Source: Candidatus Omnitrophota bacterium (lineage in GTDB: Bacteria > Omnitrophota > Gorgyraeia > Gygaellales > Profunditerraquicolaceae). Taken from it: DNA of 64,000 nt. Location: contig JAKPTF010000035.1 of assembly GCA_029571225.1 (NCBI GenBank), forward strand, positions 12,575 to 76,574, in the 5' to 3' direction. Each line of letters begins with the position of its first letter. Position 1 is the first letter of the stretch. The notes under the pieces are model-generated. The model saw only the letters and a list, made by a program, of their open reading frames with translations, was not told the origin of the DNA and did no database searches. This document shows positions 1 through 64,000 of this stretch, one piece after another. The translations under genes were made by a program, and so were the position numbers.

Positions 1-180
1 CTGCTTCAGCGCGGTCAAAGCGCCCGCATTCTCGAAGATCGTATTGGCGCCGATGACCAGCGCACCCTGGGTTTTTTGTTCGGCGCGCACCGCATTCACG
101 ACATTGCCGAAATACGTCGAAACCGCCTGGTACACGGCCTGATCCATCTCAAACAACGGCGCGGGCATATTCGTTGCAAC
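1..180 (-). repeat. Shared C-terminal domain, copy 1 (partial, continues beyond window), preceded by KDGG at 181-189
   Basis: ...GRVLKDGGVATNMPAPLFEMDQ...QGALVIGANTIFENAGALTALKQ matches GALVIGANTIFENAGSIAALTQ (PGI-like) and GAVILGANAIMENAGSIAALEK (FBA-PFK-GAPDH). The DNA at 25-65 is also close to 7795-7830. Confidence 0.8.
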
Positions 181-7179: not shown

Positions 7180-7217
7180 TGTACTCCTCCCATGTTAGGA
7201 CGATTTTAAAATATCGG

Positions 7218-10073: not shown

Positions 10074-10120
10074 TATCTCCCCCTTTTTATCGGCTTAGAT
10101 GGCATTACGATATATGCATG

Positions 10121-10153
10121 CCTGCGCGGCAGGCATCATGCCTGCCGCGCAGG
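10121..10153. repeat. GC-rich perfect inverted repeat (16+1+16 nt) in the intergenic gap between the FBA-PFK-GAPDH and PGI-like genes
   Basis: CCTGCGCGGCAGGCAT-C-ATGCCTGCCGCGCAGG. It lies 10 nt downstream of the TAA (10163-10165) on the transcribed strand. No U-tract follows it. Confidence 0.6.
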
Positions 10154-10162
10154 TAATTGATA

Positions 10163-15313: not shown

Positions 15314-15329
15314 CGTTTCTTCTCCTTTT

Positions 15330-17076: not shown

Positions 17077-20000
17077 TTAAATATTTGTCGAGAAACAGCC
17101 GTCTATCCATACAACAAACTCGATCGCTGTTTTTTCAAGGACATTGTTGTTAAACGCTCCCGCAAGAAAGGCTTTGATGCCGCCGTCTTTGTTCTCAGGC
17201 GCATTGTCGTTCTTATTGTCTTTCCCACCCTTATCATATTTCACATAAAATCCTGAAGCAGTTCTCTGAGTCTTCTGCGCATCCGTGCACGCAGCCCGCA
17301 TAGTATCAATAGCCGCGTCTATATTGCCTGCTCCCTGAACCAACGACCGCACGTGATCGGTCTCATACCCGCACCGGCACCAAAGATGCGCAAGCTGTGA
17401 TTTTTGTTCGCAGGTCGCTTTAAGGCCCAGAAGATAACAAATATCCTCTTCGCTGAACACGTAGCTGCCGGTATACTCTGATCGCCGACAGCACAGCTCG
17501 ATCAAAAAACTTGTTGTTTCGGCATCGAGGACAATAAGGCTTGCTTTGCTCATGTTCCTGATCTGAGTCTTATTGAACAACGGTTTATTGCCTCTATAGA
17601 TAAGCGAAAGCAGGAATGCGTTTCGCTCCCGCCGAAGCCAGTACGCGATGCTCTTCAGAGGCCCGGCATTCATTCCTTTGCGAGATTCCATGAATTCGCC
17701 AAGCCTCACATACGGGCTTATATTATCGGGCACCAGGCCTGCTTCCACCAGCGCCGTAACAAGCTTGCCCATGCGCGTATTGCAAAGTTCAGCCAGCCGT
17801 CTGCTGTCCATCCGCAGGTCCTTAAGGAAAAGGAACTCGGGGTCCCCATACTCTCCTGCCGGATTGTTTATCCGGCAACACAAATTGAACCCCTGCTTTC
17901 TCCAGAAACCGGTCAAGCCTGCCAGATTATTCTGCGAAACGAGCACGGACGCAAAATCGCTCCCCATGGCCCTGCATACCGGTTCCATGAATTGTTTATA
18001 CAAAAATGTGCCAATGCCTTTCCCACGCAGGGCCGGGTCGAGCATAAGCTCGATCTGTGCGCGCCGCTGGGTATCTATTTTGGTAAAGTGCATCATTGCC
18101 AGCGGCATCTCCGTTGGTTGCGCGGTTCGGTCTCGCAGGAATACGGAATACGCAAAACCATCCCGTGATGTCACGACTGCCCGGAGCGAAGCGATCCCGG
18201 TCAGCTTTCGCAGCTGTCGTATCGGCAGTTCCGATTCGATGAAGGTCTTGACGGGAATTGCGCCTCCGTCCGAACGGCGCACCGCGTATCCAGCCCCGGA
18301 CCGCCGGATATTGACAGCAGGGTCACGCCGCGGATTGAACACGTAATAATATTCGCTCCTGTCCTCGCAGGGCAGGGACAATTCCCGGCTACGATAATCG
18401 TCGCTGTCAAGCGCCTCCTTTGCGTCTGCGGTAAAGCAGGCCCCTCCTGCAGTGAATACGTACGTACGGCTATCCATTCTGACTTTCTTCGACTCGCTCA
18501 AGGCGCTTTTTCTTACCAGATACTTGAGATAAATCCGCCTCTCCAGAAGCTGTTCGTACAGACACTGTTCCCCGTGCAGAGTCGCATCGGGATAACTTCT
18601 GCAAAAAGCCAATGCCTCCGCATAGATACGGCAGCTGGTGCTCAGGGTAAAACCTGCCTCAGGCGAATAATCGAACAGTATCTGTAATGCGCTGCACGGC
18701 CACCTGAAGAGGTATCGGTCAAGCGGGATCTCGTCGCAGGCCCTGCGCCCTGACGGACAGAACGCAAGGGCAATGTCTTTCCTGCCATGCGCATGTGTAG
18801 CTCCGAATTTGCGCTGCAACAATGTATTGATTTCAGGGAATCCGCGCTCTGACCGGGCAAAGCAGCACGCCCCGTCTGCGCATCTGATCCTGCCTGCCGT
18901 TTCCCGGGAAAAACGAAGTTCTATACCGTGATTTCCGCCGTCTCTGCCTCTTTTCCCCCCACCAGGATCGTCCGGAAGAACCTCAGATTCGGCCTTTGAA
19001 CGGGTATAATGCACCACGACGGCTGCACAGAATGCCGCTGTCAATATCGCGCTCAAAATGAAAACCGTATTGGACGGCAGCGCAATCAATCCCATGTCCT
19101 CAATGCCCGAAAGGAACAAATAAACCAGGAGGCCGGCGGTAATCAGTTTGCTTACCCATCTCAGGCATGTTGAGATCATCGGATTGTGCTGCAGCGTAAG
19201 CTGGCAAAGGGATTTTGATACGCATACGTCCAGCACAATGACCAGTAAGACCACATTGATTATGAAAGCCGCAAAGGTAATCCCCGTGCCGAACCGGCTG
19301 AGCAGCAGCGGCGTTATTCCGAGCAATCCGGGGCCCGCGATCAAAGGAAAAGAAACCGGGATTACGCAGAACCATTTATAGGGAACGGCCTCGAAATATC
19401 TGCACACATGGAGGCGGGGCATGAAGAAATCAAGACAGAATATTCCCAGGACGATGACGCAGGCGATCTTCAATATCCCCAATTGGAACAGGGACAGGGA
19501 AAGCCCGAGCGCCATGAAGGCAATCACAAAAACGATTGATATCGGCATCGACAGCAACAACAACCTCCTGATGCTGCCGCGCGTCAAATTAAGATGCTGG
19601 GCAATCGCACGGAAAACGATCGCGGTTCCGATGATATTGATCGCCATGCCGACTACAAATACCGCCATGGCCAACTGGTAAAGCAGGCCCATCATGCCTC
19701 CGTCCTGCTGCGCCTCAAGTCGCCGGAGCATATCGATCGACCGAGCCTGCGCATAAAGGCCTTTGCCTCTGAGTACCTCCCGGTAAAAAACCAGTATTTC
19801 AATCCACGTCCGGCCGGAAAAGTAAAGTTTCTGGTTGCCGAACCTGACCGGATGGCCGTTATCTATCAGGAAAAGCCCTGTTGATTCTTCAACGACCTTA
19901 ATGACTTCTTCCGGCGAGACCGATAGAGAGACCTCCTTGATGAGCCGGCGGTAGAATAACATCCGTTCCTGCTGGGATACGAGCCGCTTCGACCATGGAG

Positions 20001-23000
20001 CGCGCCTCTTGCGCGTCTCGATACGCGCGAGTATGTTATCGTACTGGCGGATCAGTATTCCGAACAGGACCTGATGAAGAAACGCATGGACGCTTTGATC
20101 CGTACAGGCGAGCTCGCTGTAGAGAGCGCCCGGGGAGGACAGTTTTCTTTCGAAACGCAAGCTTGCGCGCTCGAACCTGCGTTGAGCACGCTCGATCGCA
20201 CGGCTGCTGTTCGCCGGATATACGGACACGATATCAAAACCGACGTGGTTATTCTCGAATACGACGAGCGCGCCGATATCCGGGTTGATGGCCACAAAAC
20301 GGCCGTCATTGATGAAGTAATTCGTATCATGGCTCAAGACCACCTCATACGGCATTGCCTCATACATGCGTAGCAGCTCAAGGACCGGTTTATTGCGGTC
20401 GTACAGCGGGCTGCGGCTCGGCCATTCGTATAAATGGCGGGAAAAATGCCAGCACAGATTTTCAACGCCGGACCATGCGATCCTGCGAGCGCCTCCGTCG
20501 AGATGGTTATTGCCGTTCTTGATGAATTCAATATACGTGGGAAGCGCTTCGACCACATCGTTGTCCCCTTTGACGAGGATCGCGTACATGCCGAGGCTGC
20601 GGGCCGGATGGATATCACTGTCAAGATTATCCCCCACCATAATGGCCTGCGAGCTGTCGATATTAAAATCCCGCAACACAATCCTGAACGCTTCCGGGTG
20701 CGGCTTTTCTTTCTGAGACGGGAAATCGTCCTGCGTGATGATACGGGAAAAATATTTCTTGATCTTAAGGTATTCGAGCGTCTTATATGCCATCGCTTCG
20801 CAGTTGTTCGTCAGAAGCACCAGGGGATAATCCTCTGACAGCCTATGAAGCACACCCTGCAGCTCGGGATTCGGCTGAAGGTACCGGGAAAGATCAATAC
20901 TGGCAGTCAAGTATTCATGATAATCGTGGGCGCTCAATCCGAACATGCGGCATATCCTGCTATGGCTCTTTTCGCTGCCGACGCGCTGTTCGATCTCCGC
21001 GGCGGATAAAAACGGCCTTCGGCACCTGATGAACTCGAGCAGCGCCTGGTCATATTTTTGTGCGAGCTCATCGCTGTCGTAGAGCGTGTTATCGAGATCA
21101 AAGATGATAACCGCGACGCTTCCCGAAACCCGCTGCTGGACAGCCGGCAAAAACGTAGAAAAGAAATAGTACACCAGACCCGAGAGCTGCTTGGGCCCCG
21201 GATGCTGCTGCTGGTAGTAGATCTTGCGCAGCCGCGCAAGATATCGTTTTTCAATGGGGATCCCCGCGTTATCGACAACTACGATGAATTCAGCCAGCTC
21301 CAGAGGATGCGCCTTGAAATATTCATAACTGATGCGGCGGCCGCCCCGTTCCCCTTGATGGGCAAGATGCGCCAGCTCGTGACGGAGGATATCTTCCTGG
21401 ACGACCCGGGGCAGGGTCAGAAAATACGGATGGAAGCAGATGGTATTGGTCTCCCGGACGCTGTGGGCGACCTTGGACCAGCGCAAAGACTCTTGCGCCG
21501 AGATAAGGACGTTGAATTCCGGCGGGCCGCGGATGATGCCGCGTGCCGTATGGACCAGATTGGCGAATTCCTGGAAGCTCCAGAAATAATCATACACGAT
21601 GGCTCCCGGCTTGATGGCATATCTGCCTTTGGAGATTGAAAAGGATAGGCTCGTCGGTATCCTTTTTGCGTATTTCTTTTGGCCTTCCTTTCGGGCGTGC
21701 GCCGGTATGACAAGCGGGTAAAAATGACGCCGATGGCCGTTATTATACATTCTAAAAATCTTCCCGATCAGGATCAGAGAATTCACCGCAAGCCAGACTG
21801 AAATACCGATGCTGATGGCCAGGTCGAAGAACGGCATGCCGGTGACGAAGATGGCGATCCCCGCTGCTATTGCGGCGATAGATGCCGCAAGGTCCCCGAG
21901 AACATGGATGTATGCCCCTTCCATGTTGATATCGGTGCCCGAATGGCCGCAGAGGAACCGGTACCCGACCAGATTCACGATCATGCCGAAGAAAGCGATG
22001 ATGAGAACCTCAGCCCCCCCCACCGGTAGCGGCTTGAAAAACCGGACTAATGCGGATATGATGATATACCCCGATGTTATCCCGAGGATCAGCGCGTTAA
22101 TGCCCGCTGCTGCCAGCTGGAGGAAAGAGTTGCCTTCGTATTTCGGTGCAAGCCCGAACCGGTGCGTGGCCCAATGCGCGACCAATGCGCAGCTCAGCCC
22201 TGAAATATCCGTTATCATATGGCCGGCATCGGCGACAAGCGCCAGGGAATGGAACCAGAGGCCGCCGATGACCTCGATAAGCGCATATCCGGCGGTAATC
22301 GCCAGGACGATCATGAGCACACGTGTCCCGGCGTGATGATGTTCGTGGCCGCCATCCCTGAAACCATTACGATGGTTGACGTTGCCGTTGAACGTCTCGA
22401 CCATCTCCGGGTATTCGGCATAGGCAGCATAGCCCTCGCCGATCACCTTTCTTGTCGCCGCGAATATGACCGCGGAAAATACCAGGGTCTGCGTCATGCC
22501 AATAGCAAACATGAAACCGAATACCAGATAAGCGCCGATAGACATCACAAAACTGCGCAGGAAATCGCGGCGCGCCGTGCTGCGGCGGTAGCCCCGCAGG
22601 ATACGCTGGGCATAATTGAGCGGCCCGCCGACCATGCTCACAAGAATGATATCAAGAATTATATTGACCGCCATGTTCCCGCCAAGCATCAATGCAAGCG
22701 GGTCTGAAAGATACATTTTAGCCGCGACAATGGGTATGCATGACAGGCCGCTCGCGAACAAATCATTGGCGAGCTTCTTACGGCGCACATAACCGTACGC
22801 GCTTATAAGCTTTCGCACGCGCGTGGAAATATCAGCGATCCGGGGACATACAAGCTGATCGCCTACATATCCGCACGCTTTCATATCGACAAGGGCATTG
22901 CGCACGATCACAAGGCTGATCCAGACGCAGGAAAGCACAATACTGATCTGCCCGATGCCCTGTCCGAGCGACATGCCGATAACGGTTGCAAGTATCCCCG

Positions 23001-26000
23001 CAATAACCTTGGCATAGGTCAACGACCTGAACCTATTGTCCTCGAACGGCAGCTTGTTCTCCATGATCGCGTCGCTGATGTCCTGGAACCGCCGGCTGCC
23101 CCCGTCTGCGATGCTGTTGTCAAGCACCAGGTCATACTCGTCATCCGGCACAAAAACCAGGCACCGCGATACGGCGCCCCATCCTCTGCACCGGGAATAG
23201 TGGCGGCGGTCCTCTTCCCGGGCAACAATCTTGACCTTGATATCGAACATGCCCCGGTCAAGGCTGCTGAGCGAGTGGATACCCTCGACGACAACCACCC
23301 TGGCCGGACATTTTGTCGCGCATTCAACGATGTCTGCGGTCAAGGAAGCCCAGTTATGGTGCCCGCAGGTATAATCAAACGATTCTATATACGCATCAGC
23401 TGCAAACACCTTCACCCAAAACCTGTTTGCAAACACAAGACCCGTAAAATACGTTTTGCCTACTCCGCTCGACCCGTCGATGAGAACAAACGCCCTGCCT
23501 TTCTTGCGGCACACGCCATCGATCATAGCAGGAAGCAGCGCCTGCCCTTCCTTGAGCGTGGCGCGGAGCGCTCCTCCGTCATTCCGGGGATACCGGGGGG
23601 AAGAGGCGGGATCTTCCGCCACGGTAGATTCATCCGCCTCTTTTGGCCCCCCAATATGATCCCTGGAATCATAACTCACGAAATGTATTGCTTTGCGTAT
23701 TGCTGCGGCGTAGAGCTTCCAGACATTGCCCGAATGGTTCTTATGATACAGGTATGATAACAGCACGATCCACGGCACTGATGCGCATTGCGTGATCATA
23801 TAAGAATACTGCGGGAACACCAGAAATGCGAAGAATACGACCGGAAGCCAGTACGGCAGGTTGGTCATGAATATGAGCCTGGGATATTTCAAATACCGGT
23901 GCACGCCCTGTGCCGTACCGTCATAATACACGTCGCGCAGGCTCTGGCGCAGCGGATGCCTTTCGACCCAGAACCTGCCCAGGAAGTATCCTGCGCCCAG
24001 GCCGAACCAGGTGCCCGGACCTTGATCAAGAAATGCTTTTATGACAGGGATCGGAAGGCCGGATGCCGGGATGCCGAGCGCTCCGGCGGTATATGCCGTC
24101 GCCAGCGGCAGGACTATCCCATACCACCCTATGCCGAACCAGGCAGCGCTGAACGTAAAACCCAGTATCCCTGCCCTGATGACCCTGCCCGTATCGAGAT
24201 GGCAGTGTTCTTCATCTATGCGGATCTCATAACACTGCGCGAAATAATTTGAGATCGCCGCGCTGATGCACCCGACGATCGCACAGCGTACATAATCAGC
24301 CAGAATATAGCTGCTCACATAGGCATCCACGGAAAGGCCTGTCGGAATCGGAAAGATCAGCATGATCGCTGCTGCAAACACGGTGAAAATGACTGACGTA
24401 AGCGCCAGCTGTATGATAAACTGCCTGACCTGGCCGTTTTCAGCGCCGCCGTCTTTGTTCAGATCACCAAACAGATGCCGCGCGACGCCGAACCATTCGC
24501 GCTCATAGGTGAGGCGCGAACGTTCGATGCCCCGGGCAAGCGCCATCGCCTTCTTTTGTTTCACGCCGAGAAATACCAGTTCTTTCCATGCGCCCTCTCG
24601 CACGCTCGCAACGAACAAATCAGCGCCCTTTTCGTCAATAACCCCTTTGCCGATCTTTTCGAACACGCCGGAACCCAATATCTGATGCTGAATAAAATCT
24701 TCGTTCAGGTACGCATACATATACGCGGCCATGGCCGCGCCGGCTTCCCTGCCGATCTTGCGTATCAATTTACGGGCAGCACCATTGCCCCGCACAGCTT
24801 CTTCAGTCAGCGAACGCAGTGTGAATCCCTGTTTCTTGAGTTTCCTGGTCAGGTTTGGCCCGGAAAACAGGTCTTCAAAATCGCCCCGCAGGTCATTCCC
24901 CGACTCGTCCTTCGGGTGATCCCCGCGCGTTTTGGAACCCAGGAAAATGAACCTGCCGCGGTATCCCTCCGGAATATCGGTAAGCGGCACCACGCTGCGC
25001 AAGACCACATTATGGCCGAGTTCCCGTATTTCGCCATGCTCGCCGGCATATACTTTATTGTCACGAGCTGCAGCGGCATTACTGCCCGTTCCGGATATCC
25101 AGACTGTCCCATGTCCCCAGGGGAACAGGGCACCTTTCGGCGTTAGTTCTCCGTCAACAGCCGCATTGCAGTCATTATCGATATACACGGGCATACTGCG
25201 GCCGAATGCCTTTTCCATCCGCTGCCCGAGCGCCTCCCGGAGCGGATAGTGGTCAAACGGCATGTTCTTTGCGGCAAAAGGCGTTCCGACAACCCCCTTT
25301 TCCTGGTCCAGAGGGCCGGCAAAAGCTATCCCCAAACCAGCGATCCTATCAACGGCAATCCGGTTGTCGCGGACCACCCGTTCGATTTCGCTTACCATGG
25401 CATCAACGCACTCCTCAGGGCTCGCCTGCATAAGGCCCTGTCTGAAATAATCGTTCCACAACAATTCGTCCCCGCGGGCAGCGACCTCATACTGTTTGGT
25501 GATCGCGCCGACAGCAAGCTTGCTTCCGCCCACGCTCGCCGCCATCACGAGCGGCCCGGATTCATCGTGCCGGGCTTTTTCGACAATATATCGTACGGGC
25601 TCAAGGGATTCGTTATACTGGATGACGTTACGGGCAATACCAGCGGGATTGCTGAAGCTTATATAGACGTCGAAATCCTGCGCCGTAGGGATACGATTAA
25701 AATCATCGAACGTCCGTTCCAGATAATTCCAGACCCTCCTTTTTGACAGGGACTGTTTGGTTTCCAGAATATAGCTGTCGATCATTTCATCGTCCGTCAG
25801 GAGCAGCCTGAAATCTGTGATCGCAAGCCTGACCGTATAGCCGTCGCCGTTCGAAACAACCCGTGACCTGTTGCCGGGGCGCCCCTCCAGGCGCCTGACG
25901 ACGCGGTCAACTACTGCAGCCACCGCATCGTCGTTTTCCGCGAAATAGACGATGTTCTTGACACGCTCGAGTCGGCGGTCGTCTTCAAGAGAAAATATGC

Positions 26001-53000: not shown

Positions 53001-56000
53001 GCGCATAGACAAATTTCTGCTGTAGTGATAACGTCTCCCAATCAGGCCGCAAGCGCCGGTGATACAGCTGGGTAATAGCCTCTTTCAACCGGCCGGGACC
53101 GCATGCTTCCCTGGCGATAACAAGAAATTCCAGATTCTCCTGGCGGCCGCCGTCGAATGCCCCGGACATGCGATAGTGCTGATCTATTGCGGCATACTCT
53201 TCTTTTACCCTGGCCATCCATTGATCATGAGCTTCCCTGCCGTTTTGCCCGGAGAATTCCGGTATTGTTTTCTGCGCTGTCGTTGATATCAGGTCAAACA
53301 GTTCCGTGTCGGATCCGGTCCCGGTGCCGAATGTATGCTGCAGGTCGCGTATAAGACATATCCCCATGCCGATGCGCTCGAGAACCGTCTGATCGTACAG
53401 ATTCTGATATGACAGAGAAGAAATATTCCTGGCCAGATGAGCCGGCGACAGGAAAAGCCATTCTAACATAAGCGATTTGATAATGGTCGCCGGAACGGAT
53501 AATGAGATCCCACCCAGCACCAGAGACACGGCAACGGCGGAGAGCCAGGTAATAGGCGAGACGATCACCACCCATATCAGGATGTAGCCGATGTTAAGGG
53601 ATGCCTTTGCGCACCATGAAAGCACGGTATCAATGGTGTTTATCGTCTTGCGGTGCCTGCCAAGGGCGAGCGGCCATCCTGCCGCATCTTTACTGCGTGT
53701 TTTCCATCCGATCAGATGAGCTGTCATACGGCAGGAATCAGTTTCCAGGGACGGATATAAACCGTTGAACACCGCCGCTGCCAGATTGACATGCGTGAAT
53801 ATTATCAGCGCAAGCCAGGGAGACGCGATGTTCGGGATCAATACCGAAAAGGGCGCGATCCCCAGGGAATACAGGACGATAAGGCCGATCACTGCCAGGA
53901 TGAGGTTGGATAAAGGCCCTGCCGCTGCTACGTAGAAGCCGGACCGGCTGGAGCTAGTGATCGCCGTTGCGGGATCCTCCTCGACATATGATGAGACAGC
54001 GGACAGCCTGATGCGTCTTATGGGCCTCTTGAATCGGATCATGACGAGCGCATGCGCGGCCTCATGGATGGCTGATATGGAATATACTCCGAGAGTCAAG
54101 GCGCCCAGCACCGGGTTCAAGACCCACAGGACGATTATTGCAGGAACAAGAAGAACCAGATTAAAGTGCAGTTCGATCGGGATCGATGTGGGCAGGTGAT
54201 AGACGCTTGAGAACCCTCTTCCGGTCCAGCCGGATTTTCGCCGCTCCGTTTCAGATTCTCCGCCGTCGCGCAGGATGACGTGCGGCAGGGTCTGATAATC
54301 GGGCACGACGGTGCGGATGTTCACCGCGCGCTTGAGCTTCTCCCAATCGACCTTATTGAGCTGATGCTCTGCGGCGATATTCTTCAACCAACCCAGCTTC
54401 TCCTCCAAGGATAAGCCGTTCCATTCAGGCCCGCTTGTCTTCTCAAACACCTTGACCGCCGCTCTGCGCAAAGGCGCATGGGGTCCGTAGTTTTCCTGTA
54501 TCTGTGTCCTGAAATACAAATAGGTCCAATCTGCGGAATCACGAGGTATCGTCAGCCCGATTTCTGATATAAGATCCTTCAGTTTAGTCTCCTGAACGTC
54601 AAGTTCATAATTATGCCCGAGCGGACCGTTAATAAAATAACCCAATTCCCACTGTTTATATGCCCGCACCACAGCTTCTTTCAGGGCCCAGAACTTAATG
54701 GCATGCAGATTCCGAGCAATCTCCTCTTTGGTGGCGGCGCGGGTCGCCGCGGGCACAGAATCGCATAATATCCCGTCGACTGCGATCCCCCGGCTGCGAA
54801 GGCCGCTGCACATCGAGACGATCATATCAAGGCTTTGCTGAAAATCATCCTGCGCGAGATTGCGGATCATTTCCAGAAATTCAGTCTGCGTGGTAAGATG
54901 AAGAAACACCTCGTGGGCATGCCGCATACCTTCCGACCCCTCTCCCAGGTACGGCACAAGCTGACGCTCAAATCCATACAGGGCGCGCAACCTATCCCTG
55001 GCGGTTTCGGCACTATCTGCCAGGCGGAATACTTCGCTCTGGAACTTTAACTCTGCCTGTAGCGATTCCGTAAGCCTTGCTCTTCTTCTATCGTTCCAGA
55101 CAGACAACGCGCAAAACCGCACGGCCTTGTCGCCCTGCAGCCGGGAGAGCCAATCCTGGATCAGAAACGTCAAATACCTGTCCGGAAGCTGGCTGAAGGC
55201 TTTTGCCGATCTCTCCAGACTATTATCAGATACATCGGAGCTGTCAGATACTATGATCTTCTTCATCCGGGGATGATCAACGCAATGGTGCACGGCCAAC
55301 GCAATATCATACACATGACCCGTGAGGAATAAAGCGCCCATAACAGGCATGATATAAAGAATATTCAGGGAAAGCGTGAAACCCACGCCAGCAGCTATAA
55401 AGTTTAAAATTACAGTCATGAAGAAAACTATCCATCCAAGATCAGCTTCTGGTGACGTATGATATGTCCGCGCCTCCAGTGTTTTCCAGAAAGGGACCTG
55501 CGGCAGAGCCTTGCATAAGCGATTAGAGATTTCTTCATCTGCCACAAGCAGCATATTGACTACGAAGTTTAAAATAGATATCATGAATATTGTCGCGCAC
55601 AAAATGAGGCCCAGAGCGGACAACATAAAAATTCCATCGATAGTCACGGCCTGCGTATAGAACTGCCATGCCAGACCTGTATCGCCTCCTGACAACGCAG
55701 CCCAGGCCTGCGCAAAATATGAAAGAGATATCTGATCCTGGGGGGTTAAGAAACCGGCGGCGAAAACGCTGCATGCAGTCCACAGCGACCCGCCATCCGA
55801 ACGCAGGCTCGCCAGTCCGTCCTGGTCTGTTAATTTCTCCCGAATAAGACCGTTGTTGAACTGCGGGTTGACCCAGACGATCCTTCCATCAGGCGTAATG
55901 TCGCAGAGCGCGGGGCACACAATATCGATGCCGAAGGTCCTGTGCCACTCATCCTGTATATCGCGCGGCAATATCAAACGGTATATGTCGGCCACCGCAC

Positions 56001-59000
56001 GACCCTGCTCGACGTGGGTATATGCGGCCCTGTCCGGCCAATTCGCCGGGTCAAGAACCGTTTGCCAATCCGCCTCTGTAATCTCTCCCTTCTGCAGGCC
56101 CAACACCACCCTTAAACTGCTCAAGAGTTTTTGTCTTTCCTTCGAAAGGTCGCCGCCGTCATGCTCTGCCGCTAAACTAGTCTCCTTGGCACTGATTATT
56201 TCAAGCGCATCCCCGGCCATTTGAAGCGTTGCTTTCATACCCCGTATCTGCTCATCGGAAAAATCGCCGCTGGCGCGCACACTTTCAGCGATCTCATCGC
56301 GCATCTCTGCGGCGCGCGCGCGGCGGTCCGCAGGCTTTTCCTCCGCAACCAGATGGTGAATACCCTCGGCGATCATAACCAGGTTCCGGTCGTTCATGAA
56401 GTCTGCCGGGCGCAACTGGCCGGCAATATCCTTGAGCTGCTGTACCGACGTTATGGCATAATCGTGGTTAACCAGGCCAAAGGCTGAAAACATCAAAACG
56501 AATACACCTATAATTCCCAGGCTGAAGGGCACATAAAACGGAAGAATGCCGATTACGGACAATACCGCCAGGGCAATGCAACTGACCGCGACAATCCGGC
56601 TGTAGACTACGGTCACCCTGTTCGCATAAACGACATTTGTTTTCATCGCAAGCAATGACCTGATCACGCGGCCCGAATCAAGCGGGTACATCGGCATGAA
56701 AAGATTGAATATGCCCAGAATCCAATTGATCAGGCCAAGCGACACCAGCCAGGCGAGCGGGCTTGCCATATCTATGACCGGCCAGGCGAACAGGTTGAAC
56801 GAAGCACCCAGGAGCGCTGCGGGAACGAACAGCGACGCTGCTATGCCGAAACTTGCAAGGGGGCCGGCAATGGAAACCAGAAATTCCTGTTTCGGATCCC
56901 TGAACTTCATGTCCCGGATCGCCGTAGTGCCTCCCAGGATATGAAGCGTAATATGATCCGTTTCAAAGCCGTATCGCCGGGCAGCGCGGATATGCGAAAA
57001 TTCATGCGCCAGCACTGACAGAAGAACGGCAATATAGAACAACAGAAGTTCCCATCCGGTTAACGCAAACAGGGCAATCGGAATAACCAGCGTGATGTGC
57101 AGCCGCAGCGGGATCCTGGTCGGTATCTGTAACGATGGAAATATCCCGTCGCCGACCAATTCCCAGGATTTGCTCTGCGCTGCGCCGCCGTCCCGGCTCG
57201 CATCGATCCGTGTCGACGGACAAACCACCCTGGCTCTGAACCATAGAGGAACATGCCGGATCATATCCTGCCTGATCGAAACAGCTTTTATAAAGCTGTC
57301 CTGCGCCATGTCTTCAAAGCCAAGGGCAAGCGACATTGCCCCCAGGTTTACATGTGATATATGGCACGCCGGATTGAGCTCGATTGCCTTCTGCATCTCT
57401 ATAATGGCTTGCTGAAAATAACCCTGCCGGTAATAGAGTAGCATGCTGCGGTTATAGAGAACCGACGCGTAATCGGGATTCTGCTCAAGCGCCTTCCGAT
57501 ATGCCGAAAGTGCGGCGTCATAGTGGCCGAACTCCGCATATACCGCTCCCAGGTTATTATAAATACAACAGCTCACGCCCGGCTTATCCATTATCTGGAA
57601 CCCGAAGTAAAACAGATTCAATAATTCTTTCTTTGTGATGCGGTCGACATCCAGCACGCCTGCCTGATATTGCTGCTCGAGTTCGATAACACGCTCGCCG
57701 GATATTTTATAGTTTGGCTTGAGTACCCAATATACGCCTGCTTTGCGGTAATATTTCCTAACATTGACGACCCGCAACGTGTTTAATATGAAATCGATCA
57801 CCAGCAATCTTTTCTTGTCAAGCATGAGCCCGACAAAACAATGTCCGATACGGCTGCAACCCCGGACGTTGAATCCCAACATTGCCAGGATGATATACGT
57901 CAATTGCGCGGTTACAATACATCGCGCGAGGCATGCTTTCATAGCAGCGCTTTCGCTGCCGGAACGGGAATCGGCATCAATGACATCGAATATATTTTCG
58001 TGGTTCAGGCTGTTGACTAACAGCATGCTTATCTGCGGCGGATCAACCTCTTCAAAAATCCGGTTCCTGTCGAACAGGTCCCACACCACAAGCATTAATT
58101 GGCCGAGATGCTTTCTGCCTTCGGGGGCATTACGCAGGCACTGATGCCATTGCGCTGATTGTTCTGTAAGGGTTTGCCATGTATCTTCAGGAAGGACCTG
58201 TTTGATCTGAGCGTTCAACGCCGGAACGGCATTTTCAGGATACCCGATGCTCACGAGAATACCGGATAATTTTTCATCATACGCTCCGCCGTCCAGGCTG
58301 AGATACAACTCCAGAGCCTTGTTCCTGACCAGCGCAGTCATTTCCGCTTTCATATCGGCATCGTCAGGGTGCGCCATGCAGCGGCGGAAGGCGCTATCAA
58401 AAACCCGGGCCGTGAATTCAAATCCTGCGTTATAGTAAAATTTTATGTAGCCGAACATCCCTGCCGGATCGCGGTCGATCACCGGCGACGGATCATGCGC
58501 AAATCCCCTGACCGCGCCCTCATGAAGGGAATATATTGCACGGAGCCGTTCGATGAATATCTCGCGCGTCCAACCCTGATGCCGGTATTCCGGGAACAGG
58601 AAGAACCCGGTATTAAAGAACCACTTGGAATGCCAGCCAAATCCGACAATCCCATCCCTGTTGGCCAGGATCTCGAGCCTTTCATGGCGGCCGCCGATCG
58701 TGACGTTGAACCCGCGGGGTCTTTCCGAACAGGACCAGTGTATCCCGCGGCCGAGGATCGTCGTGTAGAACGGATCGTTCTCGAACATCATGATACCTTC
58801 TGTCTCAAGACAGAAATACGTCCTGCCGTAACGGGCGCTGTGCTGACTTATTTTTGCATCAAGCATTGCTACCTGGTCAGAGCTATCGGCCCAATCGGAA
58901 TCGAAAAGCTCGATCGGCTCTTTGATCCTGCTGACGATTTCTTCGCGTCCTGTCCCGCCGTCGCGCAGCGCTCTCTCGATCATCTTGATGTCGCTTGAAA

Positions 59001-62000
59001 GCCTGTCCATGGCAAAATCGGTATACCTGCAGGCGATCATGCGTTTATTGACCGGCAGTTCTCCCCGCGCCACGCGCGTCCGGATGCCCTTCATGGTAGA
59101 GGTAAACCCGCTGATGAAGCTATCCCTTGCCGCAGGCCGGATATCCCGGGCCGCGATATTCGACAGGAGGGATTGCAGCATTCCGGCCTGGGTGCTCAGA
59201 TCGTCTTTGTCCAGAGTGAACGCGCTGACAAAATCTATATTGTACATTTCAATAACCGTATCGAGGTCAAGATCAACCCGGATATTGCTCGGGTTCCTGT
59301 CACCGAGGCCGATCAAATAAGCGGCAAATGCGGTCTTGCCCAGCAAATATGCCAGTTGCGGGACAAAACGACGGTTCGCGAGCAACGCGTCATTGAAAAG
59401 GTAGATATCCTCAAGGCTCGAATTGCCCACGTTGGTATAAACATAGTAATGGCTCCGGTAATCGACGAGCATCTGCGTCGGCAGGGTAAACGCCTCCAGG
59501 ACTATCGAGGCATACGGCTCATAGCTGTACGAAAAGGCCTCTTTCAGGATGAGCGTTATATGCTTCGAACCGAACCGGACTTCCGCGCGGTACGTCCGGA
59601 GGTCATCAAACGAGGTCTGGATTACGCCTTTTATTAATTTCACGGATCCGATGCCGTCGCAGCCGAGGCGGCAGAGAAGCTGCCTGATAAACTGTTCTTC
59701 CTGGCCGCCGTCGCACGATTGTTTTGCGGAAGCCGCATCCTCTTTCCCATCGGCAGCAAGATACTTTTCTATGACGTGGCCGGGGATCAGCCTGTTCAAT
59801 CGTTTGACAGCAGATTCCTTTTCGTCAGGGCCAAGCACATTGATCACGTGCAGATTTCCCGGCGACAGGACAATCGCCTTCATGAAATTTTCCATCGCCT
59901 CCTGTTTATTTTCCGAATACAGATTAACGAGCCCTAAGCCAAGATAACTGCTGTAGTCTGCGGGATTGAGTTCCCGGGCAAAAGAAAACTCTTCCTCGGC
60001 ATTCTGGTAATCCCCTCTCTCAAGGTAATTGAATGCGGCGCCGATGTGCGCAACGACATAGTCCGGTTTAAGTTTAAGGGCCTTAAGATAATGCGCCAGC
60101 GCCGCATCCTTATCGTTCAGCCGGTCATACGTCATCGCCGCTTTCTTGTACATGACCGCCATAAGGCCTGATGCGTCGGTAATATATATATTCGAGTAAT
60201 ATAACGGGAACATCTGGGCATCTTTGAGCGTGTACGCAGGCTGATTTTTCCTGTCGGACCTTTCTTTCAGCCGGAGCAATGCCGCAGGCTCAAGCGGCCA
60301 GTTCCATGACAGATATTTTCCCTCGGCGTGGTAGGTATCCTGCAGCGGCACTGCCTTAATAATGCCGGTGAACAGGTCGACAAAAATGTGCTCGCCTGCC
60401 CAGGGGACAACCGCGAACACGGGGCCGGAGCCGACGGCAATCCTTGTCTCATAACCAAGCATCGATAACAGCAGATACATAAAAGCAGTCTTGTTGGCGC
60501 ACGTAAAAAACGAGTCATAGATCCTGTTTTTCTCTTCTTGCGCGAGGGGCGAGGCAAAAAGGGCGTCGAAAATATGCTGTATCGGCAGCGAGTGCACCAG
60601 ATATTCGTGGATTAACCAGACAGACCTGATATAAACCTTGTCATGCGCAAACCCGACTTCAGGGAGTTCGTCGTGCGTTGTTTCAAATACGATCTCTCGC
60701 GTCTTTCCGTCCCGGACGCTCTCGTCAAATATTTCCCTGAAGGTCTTTTCCATGATGAGAAGCGTGTCCCGGCTGAATTGCGCGCGGAGCTCTTCGATGA
60801 AAGCGGGCATGATCTCCTTTTCGCAGGACAACCGGCGCAGGATTTCAATCAGGTCCCCGTCATCGGCTATATGCCCGCGGTTGGGAAGCAGGAGCGCCTG
60901 CTCCGCCTTGAGCATGGCCTCTTTTTCAGCTCGCGATTTCCTTTCTATCTCAAGGTACATGGAAAGATACGGGATATCAAGGAACGTCGGGCAGACCACG
61001 ACATCGACCGCATCCGTATTTGCAAAGCCTTTCTTGAGGCCGCGGTAATAATTCATGATGCAATCGCCTTTTTCGAACATCTTCAGATTAAAGATGACGA
61101 ACGGTTTCTTGGCCTTCTTTTCCGCAAACGCCGCTGCCTGCAAGACAATACCCGCAGCGCTTTCAACCGGCATGGCGAATCGGGCGACAAATACGCCGTC
61201 GATGTCTGGTTGCCCTAAATAATCCGCGGCATTGTCCGCATTGACGTACCTGCCGTACATAAGATAGATCTTTCGCGCAATGCGCGGCCCGTACCGTTTG
61301 TTCCGGGCGAGCCACGTCCGCAGTGTCCGGCAGACCGCCTGGGCCTCGGCAGGATCTATTGCCTTCTGCTGCGACTCCTGCTGCTGCTTTACCCACAGCG
61401 GCAGATAAATGACAATGACCTTCTGGGCCTGTTTCCTGCCGATGCCCTGCAGGGCGGTGCTTAACTGGTTGATCAAAACCTCATTCGTGACCCCGCGTTT
61501 TCGTTCATCGAGCGTATCAGACACGAAAATGGCCGGTATCAGGCCGTGCGCCAGCGCAGCCTTGACCTTCTTATTGACGAGTTCATACGATTCCACGATC
61601 TCGACAACGCCGTGCGTCCGTTCCGGATGCCCGACCATGACAAAGGCGACCTGCTCGCGTAAAAGCATGGAGGGCGAAACCTCTCCCGTATACGGCCCCG
61701 CGTCCTTGTAGAACATGTTCTGGGCGCCCATGAATATACCGCCGTCGCGGTCGGTATCGGGGGCGCATTTTTCACGGTCGGACAGCTCGGTCATATACCC
61801 CTGCGCCGCCAGGAATTCGGCTTCTTCGAACCATGTCAACTTCGCATTGCGCATTTGTTCCATGACAATGCGGCGGTACAGCGATCCGGGATCGAGTACG
61901 ATGGTCACCAGATAACTCCACGGAAGCCGCTCGATGCGCGTTCCGTTCCTGATGGTCCTGCCGGAAAGCGGCACCGGCAGTTCCTTGCACATGATGCCGG

Positions 62001-64000: not shown

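What the first reader, a model, noticed from the sequence alone, without database searches (positions are those of the whole stretch)
17077..64000. D-G-G tripeptide punctuates the giant ORF at module boundaries: candidate double-glycine polyprotein processing sites
**Count.** By hand I count 37 D-G-G in the 15,639 residues. The 9-nt sites start at 63403, 63001, 61738, 59704, 58954, 58285, 57184, 56152, 55789, 54259, 53146, 52951, 51616, 44626, 43285, 42667, 40288, 38926, 37564, 35962, 34660, 33190, 32176, 31333, 30562, 29740, 29122, 27259, 24445, 23572, 23098, 22348, 20491, 19696, 18934, 18262 and 17179. If D and G are each roughly 5-8% of residues, chance predicts only a handful.

**Sequence context.** The residue before D is K or R in 21 of the 37 sites and Q in 5.

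**Position.** The sites fall where recognisable families begin or end:
- TIM starts at DGG+1.
- Both M50 modules start at DGG+1 with paralogous sequence.
- CDF starts HEHHH at DGG+1.
- The MarC-like module starts MMGLL at DGG+1.
- All seven helical paralogues end ...LNxAxDP...DGG.

**Protein-level constraint.** Codons vary synonymously between sites (GAC/GAT, GGC/GGA, GGC/GGG/GGT/GGA), so the constraint acts on the protein and this is not a DNA repeat.

**Precedent and alternatives.** Cleavage next to GG is the logic of ubiquitin-like processing, bacteriocin double-glycine leaders (C39 peptidases) and coronavirus PLpro sites. Several sites are followed directly by a TM helix, as in GlyGly-type sorting signals. 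Alternatively DGG could be only a flexible linker or a metal-binding turn.

**Caveat.** Some DGG-bounded units still hold several domains (TIM + papain-like + TPR; CDF + HExxH + HAD). DGG therefore does not mark every domain junction.
Basis: partly seen in the sequence, partly recalled or inferred. Interest (0 to 1): 0.95.

Follow-up and report, generated by a model that had tools for sequence, protein, structure and literature searches.

The report
DGG junction motif in giant gene
A giant Omnitrophota gene of more than 15,640 codons is split into about 38 protein-sized units by a strictly conserved Asp-Gly-Gly tripeptide that also ends the leader peptides of neighbouring enzymes; these are the first concrete candidate cutting sites for turning such giant proteins into many normal ones, though no cutting has been shown.

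Summary
The minus-strand ORF (17077-63999, open at the window edge) has exactly 37 in-frame DGG at the listed coordinates. About 4.2 are expected (shuffles 4.1±2.0, maximum 12), and DGG is by far the most enriched tripeptide.

The sites behave as module boundaries:
- None lies inside a Pfam-detected domain.
- Complete enzyme profiles start or end within a few residues of a site.
- Seven paralogous modules (22-34% identical) all end in DGG.
- Spacing is protein-like (median 352 aa).

New evidence:
- Two diverged relatives show the same punctuation (13 vs 2.4 expected; 23 vs 1 by strand). DGG is kept at orthologous boundaries while flanks and module order change.
- Four downstream glycolytic fusion proteins carry a signal peptide, then NLRP (three of the four), then (K/R)DGG within their first 75 residues.
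- Codon choice matches ordinary Asp-Gly usage, so the constraint is on the protein.
- Other Omnitrophota large ORFs lack the motif.

Most likely this is a recognition site for a Gly-Gly-specific endopeptidase processing a cellular polyprotein. Cleavage itself is untested. No C39 or S8 domain was found in the window, and the ORF's N-terminus lies outside it. An uncleaved hinge or docking motif remains a serious rival. I found no prior report.

The parts
17077..63999 (-). Giant ORF, 15,640 codons in the window. The N-terminus lies beyond 64000 and the stop is at 17077-17079. It is a multi-enzyme, multi-transmembrane Omnitrophota giant gene.
   Evidence: open frame. (Pfam: DUF1152, TIM, TPR, 2x M50, 6x AAA_5 midasin-like, VWA, CoaE, HEAT, ROK, Cation_efflux, HAD, GNAT). 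(100% identical fragment named Candidatus Omnitrophota bacterium).
63403..63411 (-). DGG site, residue 197 (Q-DGG-A)
63001..63009 (-). DGG site, residue 331 (H-DGG-H). Start of the DUF1152 unit. Conserved in orthologue L009, where the homology block begins exactly here.
61738..61746 (-). DGG site, residue 752 (R-DGG-IFMGAQNM). Start of the circularly permuted TIM. Conserved in L009 and L007.
59704..59712 (-). DGG site, residue 1430 (C-DGG-Q). End of the cpTIM + Cys-domain + TPR unit.
58954..58962 (-). DGG site, residue 1680 (R-DGG-T)
58285..58293 (-). DGG site, residue 1903 (L-DGG-A)
57184..57192 (-). DGG site, residue 2270 (R-DGG-A). End of the Cys/His/Asp domain + TPR unit and start of the first M50 unit. 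The tail is coil with low pLDDT in the AlphaFold model.
56152..56160 (-). DGG site, residue 2614 (H-DGG-D). End of the first M50 unit.
55789..55797 (-). DGG site, residue 2735 (S-DGG-S). Start of helical paralogue 1.
54259..54267 (-). DGG site, residue 3245 (R-DGG-E). End of helical paralogue 1 and start of the second M50 unit.
53146..53154 (-). DGG site, residue 3616 (F-DGG-R). End of the second M50 unit.
52951..52959 (-). DGG site, residue 3681 (M-DGG-N). End of a 65-aa truncated copy of the helical-paralogue tail.
51616..51624 (-). DGG site, residue 4126 (K-DGG-K). End of helical paralogue 2, 11 aa before the AAA ring unit. In the AlphaFold model it closes a 16-residue coil tail.
44626..44634 (-). 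DGG site, residue 6456 (K-DGG-S). End of the 2330-aa six-AAA unit, which has no internal DGG.
43285..43293 (-). DGG site, residue 6903 (A-DGG-E). End of helical paralogue 3.
42667..42675 (-). DGG site, residue 7109 (K-DGG-D)
40288..40296 (-). DGG site, residue 7902 (K-DGG-R). End of the HExxH + VWA unit.
38926..38934 (-). DGG site, residue 8356 (K-DGG-R). End of helical paralogue 4.
37564..37572 (-). DGG site, residue 8810 (K-DGG-A). End of helical paralogue 5.
35962..35970 (-). DGG site, residue 9344 (F-DGG-I)
34660..34668 (-). DGG site, residue 9778 (R-DGG-L). End of helical paralogue 6. A TM helix follows directly.
33190..33198 (-). DGG site, residue 10268 (Q-DGG-K). End of helical paralogue 7.
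32176..32184 (-). DGG site, residue 10606 (K-DGG-L), 17 aa after the end of the complete CoaE profile.
31333..31341 (-). DGG site, residue 10887 (R-DGG-K)
30562..30570 (-). DGG site, residue 11144 (R-DGG-E)
29740..29748 (-). DGG site, residue 11418 (Q-DGG-R), 14 aa after the HEAT_2 match.
29122..29130 (-). DGG site, residue 11624 (Q-DGG-E). Start of the 621-aa membrane unit whose L007 homologue also follows a DGG.
27259..27267 (-). DGG site, residue 12245 (K-DGG-E)
24445..24453 (-). DGG site, residue 13183 (K-DGG-A). End of the ROK-containing unit.
23572..23580 (-). DGG site, residue 13474 (N-DGG-A)
23098..23106 (-). DGG site, residue 13632 (A-DGG-S)
22348..22356 (-). DGG site, residue 13882 (R-DGG-HEHHH), 10 aa before position 1 of the Cation_efflux profile.
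20491..20499 (-). DGG site, residue 14501 (L-DGG-A), 24 aa after the end of the complete HAD_2 profile.
19696..19704 (-). DGG site, residue 14766 (Q-DGG-MMGLL). Start of the six-TM MarC-like unit (the Pfam MarC match is weak, E 0.047).
18934..18942 (-). DGG site, residue 15020 (R-DGG-N)
18262..18270 (-). DGG site, residue 15244 (S-DGG-A). Start of the GNAT-containing unit.
17179..17187 (-). DGG site, residue 15605 (K-DGG-I). Last site, only 33 residues before the stop codon.
15128..15136 (-). Leader-end K-DGG at residue 70 of the downstream FBA-PFK-GAPDH fusion ORF (10163-15343). It comes after an N-terminal hydrophobic signal-like segment.
10937..10945 (-). Internal K-DGG at residue 1467 of the same ORF. 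It sits directly before a ~240-aa C-terminal domain shared with the PPDK and PGI-like proteins.
9864..9872 (-). Leader-end K-DGG at residue 68 of the PGI-like ORF (7218-10073): signal peptide ...YAA|GNNLRP... then KDGG.
7036..7044 (-). Leader R-DGG at residue 46 of the PPDK ORF (starts at 7179 and runs off the window at 1).
6952..6960 (-). Second leader K-DGG at residue 74 of the PPDK ORF.
181..189 (-). Internal K-DGG at residue 2331 of the PPDK ORF, directly before the shared ~240-aa C-terminal domain.
57184..58284 (-). Unit m06: a domain with conserved Cys...His...Asp spacing followed by TPR repeats. A paralogous copy lies in 59704-60720. It is a candidate cis protease, unconfirmed.
   Evidence: paralogy, conserved C/H/D pattern. 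(only the TPR half matches C39_PA2778_fam). (no confident model, no PDB relative).
53146..57183 (-). Region holding the two Peptidase_M50 (site-2-protease type) units, m07 at 56152-57183 and m10 at 53146-54258. Each starts at DGG+1.
   Evidence: The L009 orthologue also has an M50 unit, whose Pfam match starts about 50 aa after a DGG.

Best explanation
(K/R/Q)-D-G-G is a short linear recognition signal that closes each unit of a cellular polyprotein. The giant ORF encodes at least 38 protein-sized units: enzymes, transporters, proteases, a six-AAA ring, and seven copies of an orphan membrane-plus-helical module. Each unit ends in a flexible tail that terminates in DGG.

I infer that a Gly-Gly-directed endopeptidase cuts at these sites, most likely after the second Gly, as C39 peptidases, viral papain-like proteases and deubiquitinases do. 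The protease could be encoded in the unseen N-terminal part of the ORF, by the Cys/His/Asp+TPR unit, or elsewhere in the genome. Cutting would release the units as separate proteins.

The same signal would remove a propeptide from the neighbouring glycolytic fusion proteins. These have the layout signal peptide, then NLRP (three of the four), then (K/R)DGG, then enzyme.

Shown:
- the motif, its excess, and that the constraint is on the protein;
- its position at boundaries;
- its conservation in paralogues and orthologues;
- its presence at leader ends.

Inferred:
- that it is cleaved, on which side, and by what.
For: 1. **Excess.** 37 against 4.2 expected, the top tripeptide, in frame only.
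2. **Boundary position.** No site falls inside any of 13 Pfam-matched stretches covering 26% of the ORF (about 1e-5 by chance). Complete profiles end or start 10-25 aa from a site: CoaE, HAD_2, Cation_efflux, the AAA ring.
3. **Spacing.** Median 352 aa, minimum 65. A minimum gap that large has probability 0.0024 under random placement.
4. **Paralogues.** Seven paralogues at 22-34% identity all end in DGG, which supplies 3 of only 11 invariant columns. The spacer before it varies in length.
5. **Codons.** Six different 9-mers encode DGG in those seven copies. Codon use equals that of other Asp-Gly pairs.
6. **Orthologue L009/L010** (59% identical block).
   - DGG is again the top tripeptide, 13 against 2.4 expected.
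   - Both DGGs flanking the DUF1152 unit are conserved, and homology starts exactly at one of them.
   - In L009, DGG brackets complete GDPD and GNAT profiles, and the NDK profile ends 2 aa before a site.
7. **Relative L007** (25-44% identical). 23 motif codon strings on the coding strand against 1 on the other. R-DGG-IFLGAQNM is kept, and the TIM unit is followed by DGG plus a homologue of a unit that lies 10,000 residues away in our ORF.
8. **Leader ends.** Four neighbouring proteins carry (K/R)DGG at residues 46-74, after a signal-like segment. No folded domain precedes the motif there, so a simple hinge is hard to argue.
9. **Last site.** It lies 33 aa from the C-terminus.
10. **Local structure.** The 15 residues upstream are enriched in disorder-promoting residues; the downstream ones are not. 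AlphaFold puts DGG at the end of a coil tail with low pLDDT in two units.
11. **Literature.** Cleavage of Omnitrophota giant proteins by their C39/S8 domains has been proposed, with the cleavage points explicitly unknown (bioRxiv 10.1101/2023.11.21.568195).
Against: - No cleavage data of any kind were available.
- Pfam and NCBIfam detect no C39, S8 or other Gly-Gly-specific peptidase in the 47 kb of ORF in the window, or in 20.6 kb of the L009 orthologue.
- The candidate Cys/His/Asp domain has no detectable relative and no confident model.
- The upstream context lacks the hydrophobic periodicity of classical double-glycine leaders. Every upstream position other than -1 carries less than 0.7 bit.
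- The preference for K/R before D is not shared by L009 (2 of 13).
- Some junctions lack DGG. Examples are the domains inside multi-domain units, and the shared C-terminal domain in the 951-aa protein.
- Sites would lie on both sides of the membrane if units with odd numbers of TM helices exist. I could not resolve this.
- Other Omnitrophota large ORFs with the same AAA module have no DGG.
Confidence: 0.5

Rival explanations
1. DGG is an uncleaved inter-module element: a conserved hinge, turn, or docking or recognition patch. It would let neighbouring units of one megadalton, membrane-embedded protein fold and move independently. No proteolysis is involved.
For: - Gly-Gly is flexible, and the motif sits in coil tails.
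- No protease could be linked to it.
- West-Roberts et al. leave open whether the giant proteins work as one chain.
- Some domain junctions do without it.
Against: - Flexibility alone does not explain an invariant Asp or the total absence of EGG and NGG.
- Ordinary linkers are not motif-exact across paralogues at 22% identity.
- The motif also occurs where there is no domain on one side. It appears 25-35 aa after signal peptides in four stand-alone proteins (twice in one leader), and 33 aa from the C-terminus of the giant ORF.
Confidence: 0.25
2. DGG is read by non-proteolytic machinery. Possibilities are a co-translational pause or checkpoint for folding, membrane insertion or export of each unit, or a site of post-translational modification or transpeptidation (sortase-like or rhombosortase-like).
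For: - Transmembrane helices, when present, cluster at the start of units. Four units begin a helix within 10 aa of DGG and seven within 26 aa.
- The neighbouring proteins combine the motif with a secretion-type leader.
Against: - Most sites (30 of 37) are not followed by a nearby TM helix.
- The sites are internal, not C-terminal tripartite signals.
- No sortase-type enzyme was seen.
- I know of no stalling motif of this form (own knowledge).
- The second codon is the SD-like GGA in only 9 of 37 sites, so an mRNA pause signal is unlikely.
Confidence: 0.1
3. DGG is a DNA-level or historical by-product. It could be a scar of the gene-fusion events, or the core of a recombination site by which modules are inserted and shuffled, with no present function in the protein.
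For: - Module order differs between relatives, and homology blocks begin exactly at DGG.
- GAC GGC GGC is the commonest spelling.
Against: - Wobble positions vary freely, and in proportion to ordinary Asp-Gly and Gly-Gly codon use.
- Flanking nucleotides are not conserved.
- All copies are frame-locked: 37 in frame 0 against 1 in the other frames and 3 on the other strand.
- Paralogues that have drifted to 22-34% identity would have lost a neutral scar.
- The motif also occurs in N-terminal leaders that are not fusion junctions.
Confidence: 0.05

Closest known systems
Double-glycine leader processing by C39 peptidases (bacteriocin/PCAT type)
   Same: - Gly-Gly would sit directly before the presumed cut.
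- In the neighbouring proteins the motif closes an N-terminal leader.
- C39 domains are reported near the N-termini of Omnitrophota giant proteins (10.1101/2023.11.21.568195; 10.64898/2026.06.07.730766).
   Different: - Here the motif is internal and repeated at least 37 times in one chain.
- The preceding residues are D and K/R/Q rather than the LSxxELxxIxGG pattern.
- The stand-alone leaders contain a Sec-type hydrophobic core, which classical GG leaders lack.
- No C39 domain was found in the sequence available.
Viral polyproteins cut by papain-like proteases at xxGG sites (coronavirus PLpro LXGG, alphavirus nsP2 RAGG/RAGA; own knowledge)
   Same: - One long ORF encodes many unrelated functional units.
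- The units are separated by a short, conserved Gly-Gly-containing junction.
- A basic residue is often found three to four positions before the cut.
   Different: - This is a cellular bacterial gene more than ten times longer.
- Its units are metabolic enzymes and membrane proteins.
- The protease is unidentified and cleavage is unproven.
Polyubiquitin and ubiquitin-ribosomal fusion precursors cleaved after C-terminal Gly-Gly
   Same: Units are fused head to tail, and each ends in Gly-Gly.
   Different: The units before DGG are not beta-grasp domains. They are helical, TIM, HAD and other folds. No conjugation machinery is evident.
Omnitrophota giant proteins ('Archaeovorins'; 'multi-enzyme metabolic cluster' class)
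   Same: - Same phylum and an ORF of more than 15 kaa.
- Many TM helices.
- Shared content: TIM, ROK, HAD, GNAT, AAA_5, TPR/HEAT.
- Published suspicion of processing.
   Different: - No junction motif or cleavage point has been described. 'DGG', 'polyprotein' and 'linker' are absent from the 2026 preprint, and 'DGG' and 'polyprotein' from the 2023 one.
- The motif is restricted to one sub-lineage. L003 and L033 lack it.
GlyGly-CTERM / rhombosortase sorting signal
   Same: A few sites show Gly-Gly followed directly by a TM helix (for example residue 9778).
   Different: - That signal is a single C-terminal tripartite tag.
- Here the sites are internal, and 30 of 37 have no TM helix within 26 residues.

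Membership tests
Omnitrophota giant multi-enzyme proteins | Single ORF of more than 10,000 codons in an Omnitrophota genome | tested here: met
   - 15,640 codons, open to the window edge.
- Fragment P0029 is 100% identical and named Candidatus Omnitrophota bacterium.
- The closest genomic relative of the AAA unit is an Omnitrophota MAG.
Omnitrophota giant multi-enzyme proteins | Many distinct enzyme families and many TM helices tiled along one polypeptide | tested here: met
   At least 12 unrelated Pfam families. A hydropathy scan gives 58 hydrophobic segments.
Double-glycine (C39-processed) leader peptides | Gly-Gly (or GA/GS) directly at the processing site | tested here: met
   GG is invariant in all 37 + 7 sites. 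That this is a processing site is assumed, not shown.
Double-glycine (C39-processed) leader peptides | Conserved leader pattern LSxxELxxIxGG with hydrophobic residues at -4, -7, -12, -15 | tested here: not met
   - Position -4 from the putative cut is K/R/Q.
- All other upstream columns carry less than 0.7 bit.
- The leaders of the neighbouring proteins have a Sec-type hydrophobic core and, in three of the four, an NLRP motif.
Double-glycine (C39-processed) leader peptides | Cognate C39 peptidase domain in cis or in the locus | tested here: inconclusive
   - No PF03412/PF13529 match in any unit or neighbouring ORF.
- C39_PA2778_fam matches only through its TPR half.
- The N-terminal part of the ORF, where such domains are reported, is outside the window.
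Protease-processed polyprotein (viral type) | Conserved short junction motif between functional units | tested here: met
Protease-processed polyprotein (viral type) | Protease encoded in the polyprotein with matching specificity | tested here: inconclusive
   There are two M50 units and two Cys-domain+TPR units. Their specificity is unknown, and the fold of the Cys domain is not confirmed.
Protease-processed polyprotein (viral type) | Separate mature products demonstrated | not testable with these tools
   This needs proteomics or expression experiments.
GlyGly-CTERM / rhombosortase substrates | GG motif, TM helix and basic cluster at the extreme C-terminus | tested here: not met
   The sites are internal. 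Only 4 of 37 have a TM helix starting within 10 residues.
Autoproteolytic junctions (SEA, GPS, Ntn, intein, pyruvoyl types) | Ser/Thr/Cys nucleophile at the residue after the scissile bond | tested here: not met
   The residue after DGG is variable (A 8, E 5, R 4, I 3, S 3, K 3 and others). G follows D, so no nucleophile is available at either candidate bond.
Ubiquitin-like precursors | Beta-grasp domain ending in Gly-Gly | tested here: not met
   The units preceding DGG are all-helical, or HAD, CoaE, AAA and similar folds.

The most novel reading that the evidence does not exclude
One lineage of Omnitrophota expresses a sizeable share of its enzymes, transporters and machines as a virus-like polyprotein. 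A dedicated Gly-Gly-specific protease cuts it at (K/R)DGG into at least 38 proteins, and the same signal matures the exported or anchored glycolytic fusion enzymes encoded next door. DGG-bounded units would then be the cassettes that are shuffled between genomes.
Probability: 0.4. Interest if true: 0.9.

Novelty: new variant of a known kind. Interest (0 to 1): 0.82.

Why it matters
Whether the giant proteins of Omnitrophota (up to 85,000-147,000 aa in published work) act as single chains or are cut into pieces is an open question. The authors who described them state that the lack of known cleavage points blocked further analysis.

A three-residue junction motif that partitions such an ORF into protein-sized, domain-complete units gives exact, testable predictions:
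- which peptides to look for in metaproteomes;
- where to cut the sequence for structure prediction and annotation;
- which residues to mutate.

If cleavage is confirmed, it would be a cellular, bacterial counterpart of viral polyprotein expression, applied to housekeeping-type enzymes. It would also change how gene counts and operon logic are read in these genomes.

If the sites are not cleaved, the motif still defines the modular grammar of these proteins and the units in which they evolve.

Tried and rejected
**Searches and models that gave nothing**
- Word-indexed protein searches with helical paralogue m12 and with residues 300-800 found nothing.
- The search with the AAA unit returned mostly eukaryotic midasins. 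The Omnitrophota hits, all below 4,100 aa, showed no DGG excess.
- The full HMMER search with the 7-paralogue profile found only 28 proteins in 1.84 billion. The best seven are fragments of this same ORF.
- The viral-contig scan found nothing.
- The fold search of the helical-module model found no PDB relative.
- The AlphaFold model of the Cys-domain+TPR unit was too poor in the Cys domain to search with. A PDB profile search with that domain was empty.

**Ideas rejected**
- *Internal translation starts, with DGG read as a Shine-Dalgarno GGAGG.* Only 9 of 37 sites spell GGA GGN, and only one unit starts with Met.
- *An RNA or DNA motif.* The sites are frame-locked, the wobble positions are free, and codon use is as in other Asp-Gly pairs.
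- *An artefact of the repeated paralogues.* 29 sites against 3.7 expected remain without them.
- *Self-cleavage chemistry that needs a Ser/Thr/Cys.* The following residue is variable.
- *A universal Omnitrophota feature.* L003, L033 and L034 lack it.

**Left undecided**
- A test of membrane-side parity for all sites was not attempted beyond a crude hydropathy scan. Overlapping predictions make helix counts unreliable.

Full report
**1.

The minus strand carries one open frame of 15,640 codons. It runs from the window edge (63999) to a stop at 17077-17079, so the N-terminus is outside the window.
- With D at 6.0% and G at 6.65%, 4.16 are expected. A dipeptide-based estimate gives 8.2.
- 1000 global shuffles and 1000 shuffles within 200-aa blocks both give 4.1±2.0, with a maximum of 12.
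- DGG is the most over-represented of all tripeptides, at Poisson p about 1e-22 against about 1e-6 for the runner-up.
- Among X-G-G only D is enriched. EGG and NGG are absent, and 37 of the 84 GG dipeptides follow D.
- Removing the eight units of the repeated helical family leaves 29 against 3.7 expected.

The constraint acts on the protein.
- GAYGGNGGN occurs 37 times in frame 0, once in the other two frames, and 3 times on the opposite strand.
- The wobble positions vary.
- The apparent preference for GAC (32/37) is the same as in all other Asp-Gly dipeptides of the ORF (54/65), so it is a generic codon-pair effect.

- K or R precedes D in 19 sites, not 21.
- LNxAxDP is exact in only 3 of the 7 helical paralogues.

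**2. The sites are module boundaries.**

- None of the 37 sites lies within any of 13 Pfam-matched stretches, which together cover 26% of the ORF. The chance of that is roughly 1e-5.
- Complete family profiles abut the sites:
  - CoaE ends 17 aa before a site.
  - HAD_2 ends 24 aa before a site.
  - Cation_efflux starts 10 aa after a site.
  - The six-AAA midasin-like ring fills a 2330-aa unit. It has no internal DGG, and sits 11 aa after one site and 25 aa before the next.
- Unit lengths look like protein lengths: median 352 aa, minimum 65. A minimum gap that large has probability 0.0024 under random placement.
- Seven paralogous units, each with N-terminal TM helices and a roughly 300-aa helical domain, are 22-34% identical to one another. 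All end in DGG, which provides 3 of the 11 invariant alignment columns. The spacer between the last conserved helix and DGG varies in length.
- In an AlphaFold model built with these seven sequences, the helical domain is confident up to residue 429 (pLDDT above 85 from about residue 200). The last 16 residues, ending in DGG, are coil with low confidence. The tail of unit m06 behaves the same way.
- The 15 residues upstream of DGG are enriched in disorder-promoting residues (0.71-0.76 against 0.61 overall). The downstream residues return to background at once.
- Transmembrane segments, where present, lie at the beginning of units.

**3. Relatives.**

*The lineage is thinly sampled.*
- A profile of the seven paralogues finds only 28 proteins among 1.84 billion representatives. 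The best seven are fragments of this same ORF.
- A 100% identical fragment is named Candidatus Omnitrophota bacterium.

*Two diverged relatives were recovered.*
- **L009/L010** come from a 702-kb contig and a 165-kb contig.
  - The locus is one open frame across all 20.6 kb fetched.
  - DGG is again the top tripeptide there, 13 against 2.4 expected, with a shuffle maximum of 8.
  - The only long homology block to our ORF is 59% identical. It starts exactly at a DGG (ours at residue 331), runs through the DUF1152 unit, and keeps the next DGG (ours at 752) in front of IF(M/L)GAQNM.
  - The sequences before each DGG are unrelated.
  - DGG in L009 brackets complete GDPD (6 aa after one site, 10 aa before the next) and GNAT profiles.
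  - The NDK profile ends 2 aa before a site and the ADK profile 32 aa before one.
- **L007** is 25-44% identical and riddled with frameshifts.
  - It has 23 motif strings on the coding strand against 1 on the other.
  - It keeps R-DGG-IFLGAQNM.
  - Its permuted TIM is followed directly by DGG and a homologue of our unit m27, which in our ORF lies more than 10,000 residues away.
  - So units are shuffled between genomes while every junction keeps DGG.

*The motif is restricted to a sub-lineage.*
- Ordinary TIM genes picked up by the same scan have xxG, not DGG, at this position.
- Other large Omnitrophota ORFs that share the AAA unit (L003, L033, and proteins P0030-P0038) show no DGG excess.

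**4. The motif also ends N-terminal leaders.**

The genes downstream on the same strand encode fused glycolytic enzymes:
- FBA-PFK-GAPDH (1726 aa);
- a PGI-like protein (951 aa);
- PPDK (2573 aa);
- just beyond the window, TIM-M54-PGK-enolase.

Each begins with a basic stretch, a hydrophobic core and an AxA-like site. Three of the four then carry a conserved G(D/N)xNLRP string; the FBA-PFK-GAPDH leader has only a loose equivalent (DHLRG). (K/R)DGG follows at residues 46-74, and PPDK has two such sites 28 aa apart.

Five of the seven DGG in these proteins lie in the first 75 residues. The other two directly precede a roughly 240-aa C-terminal domain shared by three of the proteins. The third copy, in the 951-aa protein, has no DGG before it. 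The 553-aa ORF next to the giant gene has a signal-like start but no DGG.

A motif that closes a leader, with no folded domain upstream, looks like a processing signal rather than a hinge.

**5. Mechanism.**

The best reading is a recognition site for a site-specific endopeptidase, with the giant ORF acting as a polyprotein.
- By analogy with C39 peptidases, viral papain-like proteases and deubiquitinases, the cut would follow the second Gly (established knowledge of those families).
- Self-cleavage chemistries that need Ser/Thr/Cys after the scissile bond are excluded, because the following residue is variable.

The protease is not identified.
- Pfam and NCBIfam find no C39 or S8 domain in the window, in the neighbours, or in L009.
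- Two units (m03 and m06) share a domain with a conserved Cys at a predicted helix start, then His and Asp on predicted strands, followed by TPR repeats. This architecture recalls the PA2778-type C39 peptidases.
- However, only the TPR half matches that family. The model is of low confidence, and no solved relative is detectable.
- M50 site-2-type proteases are present in both lineages. They normally cut within membranes (own knowledge), so they may clear membrane stubs rather than read DGG.
- Published work reports C39 and S8 domains near the N-termini of Omnitrophota giant proteins, proposes processing, and states that cleavage points are unknown. That N-terminal region is not in this window.

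**6. Rivals.**
- An uncleaved hinge or docking element is the main rival. It is weakened by the invariant Asp, the absence of EGG and NGG, and the leader-end and near-C-terminal sites.
- A pause, insertion or modification signal cannot be excluded, but it has no precedent that I know of.
- A neutral fusion or recombination scar is contradicted by the frame-locking, the free wobble positions, and conservation across 22%-identical paralogues.

**7. Novelty.**

I found no paper pairing Omnitrophota with 'polyprotein', and no bacterial Asp-Gly-Gly cleavage site. The two preprints on these proteins contain neither 'DGG' nor 'polyprotein'. The kind of signal, a Gly-Gly junction or leader motif, is known. 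Its use as a repeated internal punctuation of a cellular multi-enzyme giant protein is new.

**8. Verdict.**
- Observation: confirmed.
- Boundary-signal interpretation: strongly supported and extended.
- Proteolysis: plausible (about 0.5) but untested.

Noticed in passing
window 60949-61746 (-), giant residues 751-1016: The TIM unit is circularly permuted. Residues 751-952 match TIM positions 55-247, and residues 964-1016 match positions 2-54. The catalytic Glu of the YEPxWAIGTG loop is replaced (IYLPLWVKQQ), so it may not be an active triosephosphate isomerase. The permutation is shared by L007 (beta-1/beta-2 follow beta-8); L009 likewise starts its TIM at beta-3 after DGG.
   Followed up: partly
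window 1-15343 (-) and L001:1-16813: Downstream of the giant gene lies a run of fused glycolytic enzymes: FBA-PFK-GAPDH, a PGI-like protein, PPDK, and TIM-Peptidase_M54-PGK-enolase. Each has a Sec-type signal-like N-terminus, and three of the four a conserved G(D/N)xNLRP string. That is an odd location signal for ATP- and NAD-dependent enzymes.
   Followed up: partly
window 10163-10936 (-), 7218-7907 (-); L001:13851-14570: A roughly 230-240-aa C-terminal domain ending ...EDTLNKI is shared by the 1726-aa, 951-aa and PPDK proteins (44-66% identity). It has no Pfam match and may be a common docking or assembly domain. KDGG precedes it in two of the three.
   Followed up: partly
window 33190-55788 (-), seven units (m09, m12, m14, m17, m18, m20, m21): This is an orphan family: 2-4 TM helices plus a roughly 300-aa all-helical domain, present seven times in the ORF. 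Only 28 hits were found in 1.84 billion representative proteins, and the confident AlphaFold model has no PDB fold match.
   Followed up: yes
window 40288-51615 (-): A six-AAA_5 ring unit has eukaryotic midasins among its best database matches (about 28% identity). Two units later comes an HExxH + VWA/MIDAS-like unit with a Gln/Gly-rich low-complexity stretch. The layout is midasin-like but split across DGG-bounded units.
   Followed up: no
L007:1-18773: This relative's giant-gene region switches reading frame many times. The coding signal and the DGG sites are spread over all three plus-strand frames, and the called genes are short. Sequencing or assembly indels seem likely, but real fragmentation into separate genes was not excluded.
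   Followed up: no
window 14717-15058 (-), residues 96-209 of the 1726-aa ORF: The class-II fructose-bisphosphate aldolase match covers only profile positions 166-266 and starts soon after the leader DGG. This may be another truncated or permuted barrel.
   Followed up: no
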